Source: a virus (taxonomy: Duplodnaviria > Heunggongvirae > Uroviricota > Caudoviricetes). Taken from it: a stretch of DNA of 22,651 bases. Below the pieces are notes generated by a model. That model had not been told where the DNA came from, ran no database searches, and was given only the letters and a program-made list of their open reading frames with translations. Position numbers and translations under genes: made by a program. Positions 2,509-15,049 of the stretch are shown here, piece after piece. Every line of letters starts with the position of its first letter. The first letter of the stretch is position 1. The DNA lies in IMG/VR virus record IMGVR_UViG_2851938318_000003; one strand, written 5' to 3'.

Positions 2509-2860
2509 TCATTGTTGCCCCCACAAACAGACTTCACGCTCAATCTCGCGGCGAGTCATCAGCCCTTTCCATTGCTTACCGCCAGCGTATGTCCAGCGCC
2601 GTAGCTGATCACATGCGCCTTTGATATCGCCCTGGTTTATTTTGCGAAGAAGCGTCGATGTTCTGAAATTGCCAGCGCCCACGTTGTAAACGAACGAGTA
2701 AAGAGCGCCGCGCGTTGTTTCCGGTATATCGACGTTGATGTACGGGTTAATTTGTCTGGCGACCGTGGCAAGGTCTTTATTCAGGAGGGCTTTGCATTCT
2801 GCTTCGGTATACGTTTTACCGGGCATGATGTCTTTTCCGGTGTGTCCGTGACATACAGTC
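2509..2860 (-). pseudogene. R: 3' fragment of SAR-endolysin R (P21/T4-lysozyme-like), inverted and truncated by IS629; a few codons of an overlapping Rz-like start (MSRVT) follow
   Basis: Reverse-strand translation from the IS boundary reads [115 protein letters not shown], which continues the R N-terminal fragment at 13591-13739 (…VGVWT | VCHGH…). The 5' part of the listed ORF ([13 protein letters not shown]…) is IS629 end sequence read in frame. Confidence 0.85.
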
Positions 2861-2902
2861 TGAACCGCCCCGGGTTTCCTGGAGAGTGTTTTATCTGTGA
2901 AC

Positions 2903-3793
2903 TCAGGCTGCCAGATCATCGTTTCCGATGGAAGCATAATAAGCTTTTTCTGCTTCTGCCGGAGGAGTATGGCCCAGCCTTCCCAGCAATCGTCGATTGT
3001 TATACCAGTCCACCCACGTTAGTGTGGCCAGTTCCACTTCTGCACGGTTTTTCCAGCTCTTACGGTGTATTACCTCCGCTTTGTAAAGACCATTGATGCT
3101 CTCAGCCATCGCGTTGTCATACGAGTCGCCTGTACTCCCTGTTGATGCCAGTAATCCGGCTTCTTTTAGTCGCTCCGTATAGGCCAGTGACACATACTGA
3201 GAGCCTTTATCGCTGTGATGGATGGTGCCAGACGGACGACGGGCCCACAACGCCTGCTCCAGCGCATCCAGCACGAATGTCGTTTCCATAGACGATGAGA
3301 CCCGCCACCCCACGATGTATCCGGCAAACACATCAATGATAAACGCCACATAGACGAAGCCCTGCCATGTGCTGACGTAAGTAAAATCAGCCACCCACAG
3401 CTGGTCAGGTCGTTCTGCCACGAACTGACGGTTTACGCGGTCGCCTGCGGCAACGGCTTTCCGGCTGATGGTCGTACGGACCTTTTTACCCCGGAGAACA
3501 CCGGCAAGTCCCATAACCGCCATGAGACGTGCCACTGTACATCTGGCCACCCTGATTCCTTCCCGTAACAACTGACGCCAGACTTTACGCACACCGTACA
3601 CCTGATGATTTTCATCGTATACGCGCTGTATCTCTCTCTTCAGCCAGTCGTCGTGCTGCGCACGGGCACTGCGTTTATCCGGATGATGTCGCTGTTGCTG
3701 ACAATGGTAATACGTTGACGGGGCAATATGCAGTTCGCTGCATACCGGTCCGACCCCGTACTGCTCACGCAGCTTATCCAGCAGTGGCATCAT
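2903..3793 (-). CDS. IS629-like transposase OrfB (DDE integrase-core domain)
   Basis: 296-aa [32 protein letters not shown]...[22 protein letters not shown]..., identical in protein sequence to the orfB of copies 2 and 3; recognised as IS3-family OrfB. Confidence 0.85.
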
Positions 3794-4115
3794 TTTTTCC
3801 AGAGGCGGTCGAACTCCGCCTTCGCAAAATAAGCGGAAGCCTGGCGAAGGATATCGTTACTGCGGCGCAGTTCACGGTTTTCACGTTCCAGCTCTTTCAG
3901 ACGCTGACGTTCAGCGCTGGTGAGCCCACCATCACCGCTCCCGGTATCCCTCTCATGCAGGCGTCCCCAGACACGCAGAGTCTCCGGTGTACAGCCAATC
4001 TTTGGGCAATGGAACAAATTGCCGCCCATTGTGAGTCATATTCGCCCTGACTTTCCAGAACCATATGAATCGCCCGTTGACGGACTTCGGGGGAAAAACG
4101 AGTATTTTTAGTCAT
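3790..4115 (-). pseudogene. IS629-like orfA, disrupted by a 1-bp deletion
   Basis: orfA is split into two overlapping ORFs (3897-4115 and 3790-4029). Comparison with copy 2 shows tctttgggcaatgg here versus tctttggggcaatgg in copy 2, a G4 to G3 change at about 4004-4006, plus clustered substitutions in the same region. Confidence 0.8.
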
Positions 4116-4204
4116 CCTGTTTACCTCTTTCTCAGGGAGTTTAGTCTCCAGGATTTCCGGGGCGGTTCACTTGCGTTTACATGGGATAGTTACAGGAGCA
4201 GATC

Positions 4205-4495
4205 GTGACTGGAAAAGAAATCATCCTGGAATATCTGAAAACTCATGAACAATTCTCCCCACATGAATTAGCACTGATCACCGGAATACCAAATAACAGA
4301 ATCGCTCAAGCAGCAAGGCATATGGTGAAACAAGGACATTTGAGTGTTGTTGAGCGTAAGTGGAAGACGGTTATTTATGCAAAACGCAAAGTGAAGAAGG
4401 AGCCAATTAAAAGAAATCCAGATGGTACGGGGTGGGGATGTGCAAATCCAATGACGGCGTTTATTAATAGGGCGCTTATGGAGGTAAGGCAATGA
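4205..4495 (+). CDS. ren: Ren-like protein (lambda ren family, 96 aa)
   Basis: GTG-start ORF MTGKEIILEYLKTHEQFSPHELALITGIPNNRIAQAARHMVKQGHLSVVERKWKTVIY... has the same length as, and shares the MTGKE..I..YL.TH..F...A..TG.....QAA pattern with, lambda Ren as recalled. In lambda ren overlaps the 3' end of P, so IS copy 1 probably truncates P (inference). Confidence 0.55.
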   Translation: MTGKEIILEYLKTHEQFSPHELALITGIPNNRIAQAARHMVKQGHLSVVERKWKTVIYAKRKVKKEPIKRNPDGTGWGCANPMTAFINRALMEVRQ

Positions 4496-4567
4496 CCATC
4501 TACATCACTGAGCTAATAACAGGCCTGCTGGTAATCGCAGGCCTTTTTATTTGGGGGAGGGTAAATC

Positions 4568-4774
4568 GTGGCTGAGTTAATTTTCTCTGCATTGAGGATT
4601 CTCGGTGCTATGTGGATGGTGGCGACGTTCATTGTTGTTGCCAGCAGTTTTGTCCGGTTGGTAGGCGAAGGTAAAGACCTGGTGGGTGTGCTTTTCGGTA
4701 GCATTTTCCTGTGGGTGATTATCGGTGTTATGCCTGTCGCTGTAGCAAAAATGGCGTGGAGTTTTGTGAGTTGA
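4568..4774 (+). CDS. Hypothetical small membrane protein (two predicted TM segments)
   Basis: 68-aa GTG-start ORF MAELIFSALRILGAMWMVATFIVVASSFVRLVGEGKDLVGVLFGSIFLWVIIGVMPVAVAKMAWSFVS, strongly hydrophobic. Coding status unproven. Confidence 0.35.
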   Translation: MAELIFSALRILGAMWMVATFIVVASSFVRLVGEGKDLVGVLFGSIFLWVIIGVMPVAVAKMAWSFVS

Positions 4775-4791
4775 ACTGAGGGTAAGTATCG

Positions 4792-12937: not shown

Positions 12938-13240
12938 TAAAAAAAGCCAGCGACTGACCTGAAAAAGAAGACGCTGGCTAAAAGGCCTTATATGTTTGTA
13001 GAGACTTATTTTTCACAGACAGCAATGATGCCTGTCAATATATTATCAATATGCGGATTGTTTCAGTTACAGATGCCTTATTAAGGAAAAAAACAGCCAG
13101 CACTGACTTTCGGTGGAGAGGTGCTGGCTCAAAAGGATAGATGTACTTCACATGTTGCTTCTATATGGCAGTACATTTTCTGACAGACAGTGACGGATGT
13201 TGTCAAGATATTGTGTCATTTATAACCTGAATCAGGGGAG
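12938..13240. repeat. Imperfect tandem duplication (about 150 bp x 2), each unit containing a long hairpin
   Basis: Unit 1 begins aaaaagccagcgactgacctgaaaaagaagacgctggctaaaagg...ttttcacagacagcaatgatgcctgtcaatatatt. Unit 2 begins aaaaacagccagcactgactttcggtggagaggtgctggctcaaaagg...ttttctgacagacagtgacggatgttgtcaagatatt. Stems are agccagcg/cgctggct (12945-12979) and agccagcac/gtgctggct (13094-13128). Confidence 0.5.
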
Positions 13241-13384
13241 GCCGGAATGTTATCTGGCATTTTTAGCAGAGCCTGAATGCCATAATCACGGCTCCCGGCG
13301 TTGGCCGTCAGTGGGTGACACTGGCGGCTTTTTTGTTTTTCTTTACTTTCATTTTCTGTCGGCGGTGACGGAGACATACATCAG

Positions 13385-13591
13385 ATGGAAAAAATCACAA
13401 CAGGTGTGTCATACACCACGTCAGCGGTGGGGACGGGATACTGGTTACTGCAGCTGCTGGACAAAGTCTCTCCGTCCCAGTGGGTGGCAATAGGTGTGCT
13501 GGGAAGTCTGCTGTTTGGCCTGCTGACGTATCTGACAAATCTTTATTTCAAGATTAAAGAAGATAAGCGTAAGGCTGCGAAAGGTGAATAA
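13385..13591 (+). CDS. S: Class II holin (pinholin), phage 21 S-like
   Basis: 68-aa [71 protein letters not shown] with two TM segments and a charged C-terminus, closely resembling S21 as recalled. The stop overlaps the R start (TAATG). Confidence 0.82.
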
Positions 13592-13739
13592 TGTCGCCGT
13601 CATTACGCAAGGCTGTTGCAGCTGCTATTGGTGGTGGGGCTGTTGCCATAGCGTCTGTGCTCATCACTGGTCCAGGTGGTAACGATGGTCTGGAAGGTGT
13701 CAGCTACATACCATACAAAGATATCGTTGGCGTATGGAC
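13591..13739 (+). pseudogene. R: 5' fragment of SAR-endolysin R, interrupted by IS629 copy 2
   Basis: [50 protein letters not shown], then the IS end at 13740. The N-terminal Gly/Ala-rich SAR segment is typical of P21-type endolysins. The remainder of the gene is at 2509-2860 on the opposite strand. Confidence 0.85.
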
Positions 13740-13781
13740 TGAACCGCCCCGGGTTTCCTGGAGAGTGTTTTATCTGTGAAC

Positions 13782-14672
13782 TCAGGCTGCCAGATCATCG
13801 TTTCCGATGGAAGCATAATAAGCTTTTTCTGCTTCTGCCGGAGGAGTATGGCCCAGCCTTCCCAGCAATCGTCGATTGTTATACCAGTCCACCCACGTTA
13901 GTGTGGCCAGTTCCACTTCTGCACGGTTTTTCCAGCTCTTACGGTGTATTACCTCCGCTTTGTAAAGACCATTGATGCTCTCAGCCATCGCGTTGTCATA
14001 CGAGTCGCCTGTACTCCCTGTTGATGCCAGTAATCCGGCTTCTTTTAGTCGCTCCGTATAGGCCAGTGACACATACTGAGAGCCTTTATCGCTGTGATGG
14101 ATGGTGCCAGACGGACGACGGGCCCACAACGCCTGCTCCAGCGCATCCAGCACGAATGTCGTTTCCATAGACGATGAGACCCGCCACCCCACGATGTATC
14201 CGGCAAACACATCAATGATAAACGCCACATAGACGAAGCCCTGCCATGTGCTGACGTAAGTAAAATCAGCCACCCACAGCTGGTCAGGTCGTTCTGCCAC
14301 GAACTGACGGTTTACGCGGTCGCCTGCGGCAACGGCTTTCCGGCTGATGGTCGTACGGACCTTTTTACCCCGGAGAACACCGGCAAGTCCCATAACCGCC
14401 ATGAGACGTGCCACTGTACATCTGGCCACCCTGATTCCTTCTCGTAACAACTGACGCCAGACTTTACGCACACCGTACACCTGATGATTTTCATCGTATA
14501 CGCGCTGTATCTCTCTCTTCAGCCAGTCGTCGTGCTGCGCACGGGCACTGCGTTTATCCGGATGATGTCGCTGTTGCTGACAATGGTAATACGTTGACGG
14601 GGCAATATGCAGTTCGCTGCATACCGGTCCGACCCCGTACTGCTCACGCAGCTTATCCAGCAGTGGCATCAT
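13782..14672 (-). CDS. IS629-like transposase OrfB
   Basis: 296-aa ORF with the same protein sequence as orfB of copies 1 and 3. Confidence 0.85.
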
Positions 14673-14995
14673 TTTTTCCAGAGGCGGTCGAACTCCGCCT
14701 TCGCAAAATAAGCGGAAGCCTGGCGAAGGATATCGTTACTGCGGCGCAGTTCACGATTTTCACGTTCCAGCTCTTTCAGACGCTGACGTTCAGCGCTGGT
14801 GAGCCCACCATCACCGCCCCCGGTATCCCGCTCATGCTGGCGAACCCAGACACGCAGAGTCTCCGGCGTACAGCCAATCTTTGGGGCAATGGAACAAATT
14901 GCCGCCCACTGTGAGTCATATTCATCCTGACTTTCCAGAACCATACGAATCGCCCGCTGACGGACTTCGGGGGAAAAACGAGTATTTTTAGTCAT
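14669..14995 (-). CDS. IS629-like OrfA (HTH DNA-binding component of the transposase)
   Basis: 108-aa [53 protein letters not shown]...[36 protein letters not shown]; its stop overlaps the orfB start (ATGA), as in IS3-family elements. Confidence 0.85.
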
Positions 14996-15049
14996 CCTGT
15001 TTACCTCTTTCTCAGGGAGTTTAGTCTCCAGGATTTCCGGGGCGGTTCA

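What the first reader, a model, noticed from the sequence alone, without database searches (positions are those of the whole stretch)
2509..15049. Endolysin gene split into two halves 10.9 kb apart on opposite strands, both abutting the same type of IS629 end
The R 5' fragment (13591-13739, + strand) ends ...gtatggac at the IRR-type end of IS copy 2. The R 3' fragment (2509-2860, - strand) starts gactgtatgt... at the IRR-type end of IS copy 1. Both junctions carry the same GAC triplet, as expected for a 3-bp target duplication from insertion at one site. But a single insertion should leave one flank on IRL and one on IRR, and homologous recombination between IS copies cannot change which end a flank is attached to. 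Copies 1 and 2 also lack matching duplications at their other ends (CTT and TGC), whereas copy 3 has a perfect GAT/GAT. So the current arrangement needs either a composite-transposon-like event using two IRR ends, or recombination between two independently IS-disrupted lysis cassettes from different prophages. Either event accompanied inversion of the R 3' fragment next to int and loss of the structural gene block.
Basis: partly seen in the sequence, partly recalled or inferred. Interest (0 to 1): 0.7.

Follow-up and report, generated by a model that had tools for sequence, protein, structure and literature searches.

The report
IS629-scrambled endolysin in decaying prophage
A phage lysis gene in an E. 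coli O111 strain is split into two halves that both sit on the same type of insertion-sequence end; related strains show this came from one ordinary insertion, then an inversion, then an insertion-sequence-driven deletion, so it is prophage decay of a known kind with one mechanistically instructive step.

Summary
The endolysin 5' part (13591-13739, +) and 3' part (2509-2860, -) both abut IRR-type ends of IS629/IS1203 copies, and each carries GAC. Rejoined minus one GAC, they give a 498-nt gene identical to the intact gene at this locus in strain E2863.

The window is the lambda-att (ybhC/ybhB) prophage of E. coli RM9131/RM9975 (O111 lineage). In 5,426 complete genomes:
- The R3'|IRR junction occurs in 34.
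- Its natural partner R5'-GAC|IRL occurs in 29, as a simple insertion with a GAC duplication.
- R5'-GAC|IRR occurs only in RM9131 and RM9975.
- The partner expected from an opposite-orientation insertion (IRL|GAC-R3') occurs in none.

The most likely history has three steps:
1. One insertion into R, in a nin-to-R block already inverted next to int.
2. Homologous inversion between that IS and an inverted IS beside the portal gene.
3. Collapse of the resulting inverted IS pair, which deleted one IS plus the 17.7-kb head-tail block and joined R5'-GAC to the IRR tip of the tail-fibre IS.

Similar collapses occurred at least five more times in sister strains. Their end points lie at or just outside the lost IS, which fits transposase/IEE-dependent strand switching; RM9131 has an intact iee gene. 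Interest is modest.

The parts
1..1284 (-). ybhC (5' part cut by the window edge): chromosomal flank on the attL side of the lambda attachment site
   Evidence: RefSeq annotation of RM9131; Pfam Pectinesterase
1419..2495 (-). Lambda-type integrase gene of the prophage
   Evidence: Pfam Phage_integrase plus Arm-DNA-bind_1; annotated CDS
2496..2512 (-). 17-nt remnant of the Rz 5' end, fused to the int start codon. This is an older, IS-less deletion joint.
   Evidence: Sequence read. The same fusion is in 46 genomes, including E2863 with intact R. Identification as the Rz start rests on my knowledge of Stx-phage Rz (MSRVT...).
2509..2860 (-). R (SAR-type endolysin) 3' fragment, nt 147-498 of the gene. 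GAC (GTC on the + strand, 2858-2860) abuts the IRR end of IS1. This junction is ancestral.
   Evidence: The junction is present in 34 genomes.
2861..4169 (-). IS1: IS629/IS1203 copy, 1309 bp, transposase frameshifted. It carries the ISb allele (13 variants at IS positions 93-294) at its IRL side. Its IRL|CTT junction is the reverse complement of AAG|IRL of the portal-side IS (ISb) of 11128 and E2863.
4170..13590 (+). Block B: nin genes, a Q remnant, lpxR-like moron (7491-8450, minus strand), Q, nanS-p esterase (11087-12937) and holin S (13385-13591). It is in the opposite orientation to all other O111 genomes examined.
   Evidence: 0 mismatches to 11128 and E2863 in reverse orientation. Strand comparison.
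13591..13739 (+). R 5' fragment (nt 1-149) ending in GAC at the IRR end of IS2. This is the derived junction.
   Evidence: R5'-GAC|IRR is contiguous only in RM9131 and RM9975. R5'-GAC|IRL is in 29 genomes.
13740..15049 (-). IS2: intact IS629/IS1203. It is the tail-fibre copy ISc still in place: its IRL|TGC junction is the same as in E2863 and 9662, where ISc has a TGC/TGC duplication. It shares SNP 608A only with E2863 ISc.
15050..19476 (+). Block C: tail-fibre C-terminal remnant (15049-15252), nleH (15358-16239), cif (16463-17293), a frameshifted nleG-like gene (18232-18806) and a hypothetical gene.
   Evidence: 0 mismatches to E2863, 9662 and RM9322.
19477..20786 (+). IS3: intact IS629/IS1203, a simple insertion with a GAT/GAT target duplication. 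It was not involved in the R rearrangement.
   Evidence: orfA HTH_Tnp_1 and orfB rve domains.
20787..22651 (.). Block D: espJ (21018-21671, minus strand), the attR side of the prophage, and ybhB (22175-22651, minus strand).

Best explanation
The split endolysin is the end product of stepwise IS629-driven decay of the lambda-att prophage in the O111 lineage.

Shown by comparison with relatives:
- Step 0: an older rearrangement left the nin-Q-S-R block inverted directly next to int. It is bounded on the other side by an IS629 copy (ISb, plus orientation) that abuts a truncated portal gene.
- Step 1: one IS629 copy (ISa) inserted into R after nt 149 with a 3-bp GAC duplication. This gave R3'rc-GTC|IRR...IRL|GTC-R5'rc.
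- Step 2: another copy (ISc, minus orientation) inserted into the tail-fibre gene (TGC/TGC).

Inferred:
- Step 3: homologous recombination between the inverted ISa and ISb flipped the nin-to-R5' block. This made IS1 (IRL|CTT, ISb allele). It left R5'-GAC on the IRL end of a plus-oriented IS, which now formed an inverted pair with ISc across the head-tail genes.
- Step 4: this inverted pair collapsed to one copy. The plus-oriented IS and the 17.7-kb portal-to-tail-fibre segment (19.0 kb in all) were lost. R5'-GAC was joined to the IRR tip of ISc (= IS2).

The most likely chemistry of step 4 (inferred) starts with transposase making the usual single-strand bridge on the IS that is lost, which frees a 3'-OH in the flank 3 nt outside its IRL. 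Copy-out synthesis from that primer copies GAC and the 13-nt tip TGAACCGCCCCGG. It then switches to the identical tip of the inverted partner's IRR. This switch would be helped by the IEE primase-polymerase/helicase that RM9131 encodes.

An IR-targeted strand transfer (dimer-dissolution type) would give the same joint.

The confidence of 0.7 is for the history (steps 0-4). For the enzymology of step 4, I put transposase-dependent strand switching or strand transfer at about 0.85 against transposase-independent slippage.
For: Identity of the locus and relatives.

Simple insertion with a GTC/GTC duplication in 11128.

Junction census in 5,426 genomes:
- R3'|IRR: 34.
- R5'|IRL: 29.
- R5'|IRR: 2.
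- IRL|GAC-R3': 0.

R is intact and already inverted next to int in E2863. The rejoined R is identical to it. The fusion is in 46 genomes.

The IS1 right junction is the reverse complement of the ISb left junction. IS1 carries the 13-variant ISb allele. Blocks A, B, C and D have 0 mismatches to relatives.

ISc is a simple TGC/TGC insertion in E2863 and 9662. IS2 keeps its IRL|TGC junction and the 608A marker.

The IRR|ATG-portal junction is in 34 genomes but not in RM9131 or RM9975, so the block really is deleted.

Independent evidence for the flipped intermediate: FWSEC0005 has the IS1 allele in minus orientation, joined to the portal gene.

The same type of collapse recurs in sister strains:
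- RM9322 and 14614: IRR|TGCAGTC, where E2863 has IRL|TGCAGTC.
- 110512: IRR|GTCGCTT.
- OkiPb01689: IRL|GTCGCTT.
- 2015C-3101: IRL|GATCTG, 2 bp beyond the ISb junction.
- FWSEC0005: 11 bp beyond.

End points on the deleted side lie within the tip or at +3 to +5 in five of six cases. That is where figure-eight strand transfer leaves the priming 3'-OH.

IRL and IRR share 13 identical terminal nt, then 3 mismatches, then 9 identical nt.

RM9131 has an intact iee gene, with the protein identical to Sakai ECs1305, and intact IS629 transposase genes.

Literature: the strand-switch model, IEE dependence on transposase, and IEE microhomology-mediated end joining come from bioRxiv 10.1101/2023.06.07.543989 and PMC9943667. 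IR-targeting and dimer dissolution in a copy-out-paste-in IS come from PMC9333248.
Against: - No genome examined holds the immediate precursor (flipped block with the head-tail genes still present). Only RM9131 and RM9975 have the flipped block.
- The crossover of step 4 cannot be placed more precisely than within GAC plus 13 nt, so slippage, strand switching and strand transfer are indistinguishable.
- The assignment of IS2 to ISc rests on its retained junction and a single SNP.
- Another single SNP (1151C in the IS3 copy) groups E2863 with different strains, so the IS markers are noisy.
- No whole-genome phylogeny was built, so the order of ISa and ISc gains and losses is not fixed. E2863 has ISc but no ISa, which needs either a precise excision or a different order of events.
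- Transposase and IEE dependence is inferred, not tested.
- For IS30 only IRL-IRR junctions are reported, which limits the dimer-dissolution analogy if an IRR-IRR intermediate is invoked.
Confidence: 0.7

Rival explanations
1. A single intramolecular transposition used the two inward-facing IRR ends of ISb and ISc (an 'inside-end' deletion-inversion, as known for Tn10/IS10). The segment between those ends, the head-tail block, is discarded. The two IRR ends integrate 3 bp apart into R. This inverts the nin-to-R5' block and leaves GTC|IRR and GAC|IRR.

There are two variants. In one, the target is an intact R, as in E2863. In the other, the target is the 3 bp next to the IRL of a resident ISa (IR-targeting), which leaves a tandem ISa-ISb dimer that then collapses.
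For: Worked out on paper from the E2863 map, this gives exactly the window's order, orientations, the inverted GAC/GTC and the loss of the block. IS1 would be ISb and IS2 would be ISc, as the SNPs allow. E2863 shares the ISc 608A marker and has an intact R. IR-targeted integration is documented for copy-out-paste-in elements.
Against: - The intact-R variant needs the same phosphodiester and the same 3-bp duplication as the ISa insertion present in 34 sister genomes. No sign of a hot spot was seen: in 5,426 genomes this site carries an IS only in this O111-associated prophage.
- It creates two new junctions where the favoured history needs one.
- It does not explain the five one-junction collapses in sister strains.
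- FWSEC0005 independently requires a flipped intermediate that still has the head-tail block.
- An IRR-IRR synapse was not found described in the literature I read.
Confidence: 0.15
2. The last step was transposase-independent. In one version, RecA-independent replication slippage or short-homology recombination occurred between the directly repeated 13-nt (22 of 25) tips: the IRL of one IS and the IRR of the inverted partner. In another version, a single IS was flipped in place between its own terminal repeats after an alpha-type collapse.
For: The joint lies within a 13-nt perfect repeat. The sequence alone cannot tell slippage from enzyme-driven switching.
Against: - Slippage across 19 kb on 13 nt is expected to be very rare, yet six events of this type are seen in one prophage among a few dozen near-identical genomes.
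- The non-tip events have only 1-3 nt of homology, but still end at +3 to +5 (one at +12) of the lost IS. That points to a break or primer placed by transposase rather than random slippage.
- The host has iee and active IS629.
- The in-place flip does not fit the 608A marker of IS2.
Confidence: 0.1
3. Two independent IS629 insertions hit the same site of R in opposite orientations in two different prophages. Recombination between the prophages then brought one half from each together.
For: O111 genomes hold several lambdoid prophages with similar lysis genes, and IS copies are abundant (up to 40 or more places per genome).
Against: - The IRL|GAC-R3' junction is found in 0 of 5,426 genomes.
- R5'-GAC|IRR occurs only at this locus in RM9131 and RM9975.
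- The R5'-bearing block has 0 mismatches in 9,570 bp to the same-att prophage of relatives.
- Other IS-lysozyme associations seen in the search are at other positions, as two-piece hits.
Confidence: 0.02
4. Assembly artefact: IS2 or the segments between the IS copies are mis-oriented or mis-joined in the deposited genome.
For: Three near-identical 1.3-kb repeats lie within 18 kb. I had no access to reads.
Against: - Two separate complete assemblies from different isolates show identical junctions.
- The IS copies carry distinguishing SNPs in a pattern that matches the inferred history.
- Comparable arrangements occur in assemblies from other laboratories.
Confidence: 0.03

Closest known systems
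IS629/IS1203 (IS3 family) insertion followed by RecA-dependent inversion between inverted IS copies
   Same: It has a 1310-bp element, an orfA/orfB frameshift transposase and 3-bp duplications (GAC, TGC, GAT). Flanks are exchanged between copies while every flank/IS-end junction is kept. This is seen in the IS1 right junction here and in the ISa x IS3 inversion in strain 14614.
   Different: Homologous inversion alone cannot produce R5'-GAC on an IRR end. One junction needs a different process.
IEE- and transposase-dependent IS629 excision and adjacent deletions in EHEC; the strand-switch model for abortive copy-out (Kusumoto 2011 as summarised in bioRxiv 10.1101/2023.06.07.543989; Calvo 2023, PMC9943667)
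   Same: It is the same IS and the host has an intact iee gene. The joints lie at microhomologies. End points sit at or next to an IS end, and an IS copy is lost.
   Different: Described excisions remove one IS by switching between the two sides of the same element. Here the switch would be from the tip of one IS to the identical tip of a second, inverted copy 19 kb away. One IS therefore survives, and the flank changes from an IRL to an IRR end. I did not find this outcome described in the papers I read.
Loss of flanking ISApl1 copies from Tn6330 (mcr-1) by abortive transposition (Snesrud 2018, as summarised)
   Same: It is also a copy-out-paste-in IS. The deletion is about the size of the IS, with 2-4-nt microhomology joints close to the IS ends.
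   Different: ISApl1 copies in Tn6330 are direct repeats and each deletion removes about one IS only. Here the copies are inverted, and the intervening 10-18 kb goes too.
IS30 IR-targeting and dimer dissolution (PMC9333248)
   Same: The end of one IS copy replaces the end of another copy at a flank, with exact tip-level joints and retention of the flanking target bases. A whole IS is excised.
   Different: That work describes tandem dimers with IRL-IRR junctions only. An inverted pair would need an IRR-IRR junction or a long-range reaction. It also concerns a different IS family.
Tn10/IS10 inside-end deletion-inversion (from my own knowledge of the classical literature)
   Same: Both give loss of the DNA between two inward-facing ends, inversion of an adjacent segment, and an inverted target duplication on two ends of the same type.
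   Different: IS10 is cut-and-paste. Here the target site already carries an IS with the same duplication in sister strains, which a random inside-end event would not predict.

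Membership tests
IS3 family, IS629/IS1203 group | About 1.3-kb element with imperfect terminal inverted repeats ending 5'-TG...CA-3' | tested here: met
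   The three copies are 1309, 1310 and 1310 bp. The tips are TGAACCGCCCCGG.../...CCGGGGCGGTTCA, and 22 of the first 25 nt are shared between IRL and IRR.
IS3 family, IS629/IS1203 group | orfA (HTH) and orfB (DDE/rve) in 0/-1 frames, with a programmed frameshift | tested here: met
   Pfam HTH_Tnp_1 in 19531-19857 and rve in 19854-20744, with overlapping frames. RefSeq annotates a 'programmed frameshift' and an AL1L pseudoknot. The frameshift itself was not tested.
IS3 family, IS629/IS1203 group | 3-bp direct target duplication on simple insertion | tested here: met
   GAT/GAT at IS3, GTC/GTC at ISa in 11128, and TGC/TGC at ISc in E2863.
Phage lysozyme (R endolysin) | Phage_lysozyme catalytic domain; a complete ORF once the two fragments are rejoined | tested here: met
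   PF00959, E = 1.6e-40, on the 3' fragment. The rejoined ORF is 165 aa and identical to intact rrrD of E2863. The N-terminal signal-anchor-release character is from my own knowledge and was not tested.
   The DNA between IS1 and IS2 is the prophage's own upstream nin-Q-S block (0 mismatches). The same site holds a simple IS insertion in 28 or more sister genomes.
Inside-end intramolecular transposition (deletion-inversion) | Loss of the DNA between two inward-facing ends, inversion of the segment up to the target, and an inverted target duplication | tested here: inconclusive
   All three outcomes are present. However, the target coincides exactly with a pre-existing IS junction in relatives, which this model does not predict unless it is IR-targeted.
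IEE/transposase-dependent abortive copy-out deletion | The host encodes IEE and an active transposase of a copy-out-paste-in IS | tested here: met
   iee is 2361 bp, with 1 synonymous difference from Sakai ECs1305. IS2 and IS3 have intact transposase genes.
IEE/transposase-dependent abortive copy-out deletion | Joints at microhomology, with end points next to the IS end where the priming 3'-OH is made | tested here: met
   The window joint lies within GAC plus the 13-nt tip. In relatives the microhomologies are CA, GTC, G and CT, at +3 to +5 and one at +12. The sample is six events.
IEE/transposase-dependent abortive copy-out deletion | Dependence of the event on catalytically active transposase and on IEE | not testable with these tools
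   This needs a genetic assay.

The most novel reading that the evidence does not exclude
Inverted pairs of IS629 are intrinsically unstable in IEE-positive EHEC. A transposase-primed copy-out strand switches from the tip of one copy to the identical tip of its inverted partner, or to 1-3 nt of homology just outside it. This deletes one copy plus everything between, and transfers a flank from an IRL to an IRR end or the reverse. It would be a distinct, recurrent class of IS-mediated deletion: a natural record of the proposed strand-switch mechanism and a main route by which effector-carrying prophages lose their structural genes while keeping their cargo.
Probability: 0.35. Interest if true: 0.55.

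Novelty: new variant of a known kind. Interest (0 to 1): 0.35.

Why it matters
For annotation, it shows that an odd-looking pair of same-type IS ends on the two halves of a gene need not mean an exotic transposition or a hybrid of two prophages. Close relatives resolved it into ordinary steps.

For IS biology, the six independent collapses of inverted IS629 pairs in one prophage have end points at the tip or a few bases outside the lost copy. They are natural data that bear on a currently debated question: how IEE and transposase remove copy-out-paste-in elements. They also suggest a simple reporter assay.

For EHEC evolution, it documents how a lambda-att prophage is reduced to a non-inducible carrier of nleH, cif, nleG and espJ.

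Tried and rejected
- **Head-to-head targeted insertion.** I considered a new IS inserting head-to-head at the GAC next to the resident IS, followed by homologous deletion. I dropped it as the main model because reported IR-targeting gives only IRL-IRR (tandem) junctions. It would also create a 2.6-kb perfect palindrome.
- **Figure-eight between two copies.** I worked through a figure-eight-type attack between the IRR of one copy and the IRL of the inverted copy. On paper it links opposite strands and breaks the chromosome rather than giving the deletion, so I rejected it.
- **Replicative intramolecular transposition.** I worked through Shapiro-type events of a single IS. They always leave one flank on IRL and one on IRR, so they cannot give the observed junction.
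- **Hot-spot test.** Other IS-lysozyme associations in the genome collection are two-piece hits at other positions, so there is no support for a hot spot.
- **Count from the first search.** The count of 64 genomes (80% coverage of a 4.3-kb query) overstated how many share the int/R fusion. Junction-specific queries gave 46 (fusion) and 34 (R3'|IRR).
- **Kusumoto 2011.** I tried to read it directly, but it is not held.

Full report
**1. What is in the window**

The window is identical to the chromosome of E. coli RM9131, and equally RM9975, from ybhC to ybhB. This is the lambda attachment site, occupied by a degraded lambdoid prophage of the O111 lineage.

There are three IS629/IS1203 copies:
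- IS1: 2861-4169, minus orientation, 1309 bp.
- IS2: 13740-15049, minus orientation, 1310 bp.
- IS3: 19477-20786, plus orientation, 1310 bp.

They have the orfA (HTH) and orfB (rve/DDE) arrangement of the IS3 family. RefSeq annotates a programmed frameshift.

The gene order is as follows:
- ybhC and int
- R 3' fragment (minus strand)
- IS1
- nin genes, lpxR-like gene, Q, nanS-p and holin S
- R 5' fragment (plus strand)
- IS2
- tail-fibre C-terminal remnant, nleH, cif and an nleG-like gene
- IS3
- espJ and ybhB

**2.

Read on the + strand, IS1 and IS2 both begin with the IRR-type end and finish with the IRL-type end.
- The 5' part of R ends ...GTATGGAC|IRR.
- The 3' part, read on the minus strand, begins IRR|GACTGTATGT.
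- The outer flanks are CTT (IS1) and TGC (IS2).
- IS3 has GAT/GAT.

Joining the two R parts and removing one GAC gives a 498-nt ORF. It is identical, base for base, to the uninterrupted R gene that lies next to int in strain E2863. The two fragments are therefore halves of one gene, separated at one site with a 3-bp duplication.

Crossing-over inside IS copies keeps each flank on the IS end it started on, so the two IRR junctions cannot both come from one simple insertion plus homologous recombination.

**3. What the relatives show**

In O111:H- 11128 the same prophage has R interrupted by a simple insertion. On the + strand it reads R3'rc-GTC|IRR[ISa]IRL|GTC-R5'rc. There the whole R5'-S-Q-nin block lies in the opposite orientation to the window. 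It ends at a second IS, ISb, in plus orientation with flanks AAG|IRL...IRR|ATG. ISb abuts a truncated portal gene followed by head and tail genes.

Junction-specific searches of 5,426 complete E. coli genomes gave these counts:

| Junction | Genomes |
|---|---|
| R3'|IRR | 34 |
| R5'-GAC|IRL | 29 |
| R5'-GAC|IRR | 2 (RM9131, RM9975) |
| IRL|GAC-R3' (partner expected from an opposite-orientation insertion) | 0 |
| int/Rz'/R fusion | 46 |

The 46 genomes with the fusion include E2863, where R is intact and already inverted next to int.

Three conclusions follow:
- The R3'|IRR junction is ancestral.
- The position of R3' next to int predates the IS insertion.
- The R5'|IRR junction is the derived, lineage-specific one.

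Blocks A, B, C and D of the window have no mismatches to the corresponding blocks of 11128, E2863, RM9322 and others. This excludes an origin of the R5' half in another prophage.

**4. Reconstructing the history**

The right junction of IS1 (IRL|CTTGCGTTTAC) is the reverse complement of the left junction of ISb (GTAAACGCAAG|IRL). IS1 also carries the distinctive ISb allele: 13 variants including a 1-bp deletion at IS positions 93-294.

This is what homologous inversion between the inverted copies ISa and ISb produces. After that inversion, R5'-GAC should sit on the IRL end of a plus-oriented IS followed by ATG-portal.

Strain FWSEC0005 independently requires this flipped state. It has the IS1 allele in minus orientation, joined to the portal gene 11 bp beyond the ISb junction.

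In E2863 and 9662 a further copy, ISc, sits in minus orientation in the tail-fibre gene with a TGC/TGC duplication. IS2 of the window keeps exactly that IRL|TGC junction. It shares the SNP 608A only with ISc of E2863.

The window therefore differs from the expected flipped intermediate by one deletion. The deletion runs from the IRL tip of the flipped IS to the IRR tip of ISc. It removes 1,310 + 17,702 bp (coordinates). The loss of the block is confirmed by the absence of the IRR|ATG-portal junction from RM9131 and RM9975, while 34 other genomes have it.

**5. The unusual step recurs**

The same kind of event, an inverted IS pair collapsing to one copy with loss of the DNA between, is seen in sister strains:
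- RM9322 and 14614 have IRR|TGCAGTC, where E2863 has IRL|TGCAGTC. The surviving IS is a plus-oriented copy in ninE.
- 110512 has ISb joined as IRR|GTCGCTT, 4 bp beyond the ISc site, with CA shared.
- OkiPb01689 has ISa joined as IRL|GTCGCTT, with GTC shared.
- 2015C-3101 has ISa joined as IRL|GATCTG, 2 bp beyond the ISb/portal junction, with G shared.
- FWSEC0005 has IRL|CTGCAG, 11 bp beyond, with CT shared.

With the window, that makes six events in one prophage among genomes whose shared segments are otherwise identical. Either copy of a pair can survive. On the deleted side, the end point is inside the 13-nt tip (two cases) or 3-5 nt outside it (three cases), with one at +12.

**6. Mechanism (inferred)**

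IS3-family transposase nicks one end and transfers it to the same strand 3 nt outside the other end. The freed flank 3'-OH then primes copy-out replication.

Chandler, Ross and Varani propose that IEE-stimulated excision arises when this nascent strand switches template at a microhomology. IEE is a PrimPol-helicase with microhomology-mediated end-joining activity, and it is reported in O111:H8.

Applied to the flipped intermediate here:
1. The primer ends just before GAC.
2. It copies GAC and the IRL tip TGAACCGCCCCGG.
3. The inverted partner presents the same 13 nt in the same polarity at its IRR end.
4. A switch there gives R5'-GAC|IRR[ISc].

The sister-strain joints fit a primer at +4 that is extended by 0-3 nt before switching.

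RM9131 encodes an intact iee, with the protein identical to Sakai ECs1305, and intact IS629 transposases.

A dimer-dissolution-type, IR-targeted strand transfer, as in IS30, would give the same joint. So would transposase-independent slippage on the 13-nt repeat, but the frequency and the placement of the end points argue against slippage. None of this chemistry is demonstrated here.

**7. The main rival**

A single intramolecular event using the two inward-facing IRR ends of ISb and ISc reproduces the window's map exactly on paper. This includes the inverted GAC/GTC and the loss of the head-tail block.

Its weakness is that it must hit precisely the site and duplication already occupied by ISa in 34 sister genomes, unless it was targeted to the ISa end. 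It also does not account for the one-junction collapses elsewhere. I give it about 0.15.

I give the two-prophage option about 0.02 and an assembly artefact about 0.03.

**8. Comparison with what is known, and novelty**

The components are known: IS629 insertion, inversion between inverted IS copies, and IEE/transposase-associated deletions.

What I did not find described in the papers read is the collapse of an inverted IS pair with transfer of a flank between IRL and IRR ends. It is best seen as a variant of abortive copy-out deletion.

The finding itself is therefore ordinary prophage decay with one instructive step.

**9. Limits**

- No reads were inspected.
- No whole-genome phylogeny was built.
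- The IS markers are single SNPs and partly conflicting.
- The immediate precursor was not found.
- The six-event series is small.

Noticed in passing
window 2493-2512: The int start codon lies 13 nt from the R stop codon, and 17 nt of the Rz 5' end are retained between them. This IS-less fusion places the inverted lysis block directly upstream of int. It is shared by 46 genomes, so it is an older event whose origin I did not reconstruct. It was probably an inversion between IS copies followed by a deletion, because ISb has unmatched flanks AAG/ATG.
   Followed up: partly
L003, L006, L008, L009, L010, L011 (sister O111 strains); junction coordinates: There are five further independent collapses of inverted IS629 pairs in the same prophage. 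The same flank sits on an IRL end in one strain and an IRR end in another, for example TGCAGTCGC and GTCGCTTAC in the tail-fibre gene. End points lie at the tip or 2-11 bp outside the lost IS.
   Followed up: yes
L013 21047-23407 (RM9131 chromosome 1186047-1188407): There is an intact IS-excision enhancer gene (iee) in a SpLE1-like element, with one synonymous difference from Sakai ECs1305. RefSeq now names it 'TOTE conflict system archaeo-eukaryotic primase domain-containing protein'.
   Followed up: yes
window 2861-4169 (IS positions 93-294): IS1 carries a cluster of 13 variants, including a 1-bp deletion that frameshifts the transposase. The rest of the element is identical to the other copies. 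This mosaic allele is found in ISb of 11128, E2863 and 110512, and it is useful as a marker of recombination between copies.
   Followed up: yes
L007 9345-9842 (E2863): E2863 has ISc in the tail fibre but an uninterrupted R, while FWSEC0005 has the R insertion but no ISc, and 9662 has both. These patterns cannot all arise without a precise excision or a repeated insertion at the same site. That is consistent with frequent IEE-type precise excision.
   Followed up: partly
window 7276-9616: A 72-nt remnant of an antiterminator gene is followed by an lpxR-family lipid A deacylase gene on the opposite strand (7491-8450), and then by a complete Q gene (8927-9616). This is a moron inserted at the Q region. 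No stx genes lie between Q and nanS-p (11087-12937).
   Followed up: no
window 15049-15252: The annotated tail-fibre C-terminal ORF takes its ATG from the last base of IS2 plus the TG of the TGC target duplication. The start codon is therefore created by the IS junction.
   Followed up: no
window 15358-21671: The type III effector cargo is retained although all head and tail genes are gone. It comprises nleH, cif, a frameshifted nleG-like gene (18232-18806) and espJ.
   Followed up: no
L006 (strain 14614): There is a large inversion between ISa and the IS3 copy. It moves R5' next to espJ, and the effector block next to R3'. The SNP 1151C travels with the IRR side, as expected for homologous exchange.
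   Followed up: partly
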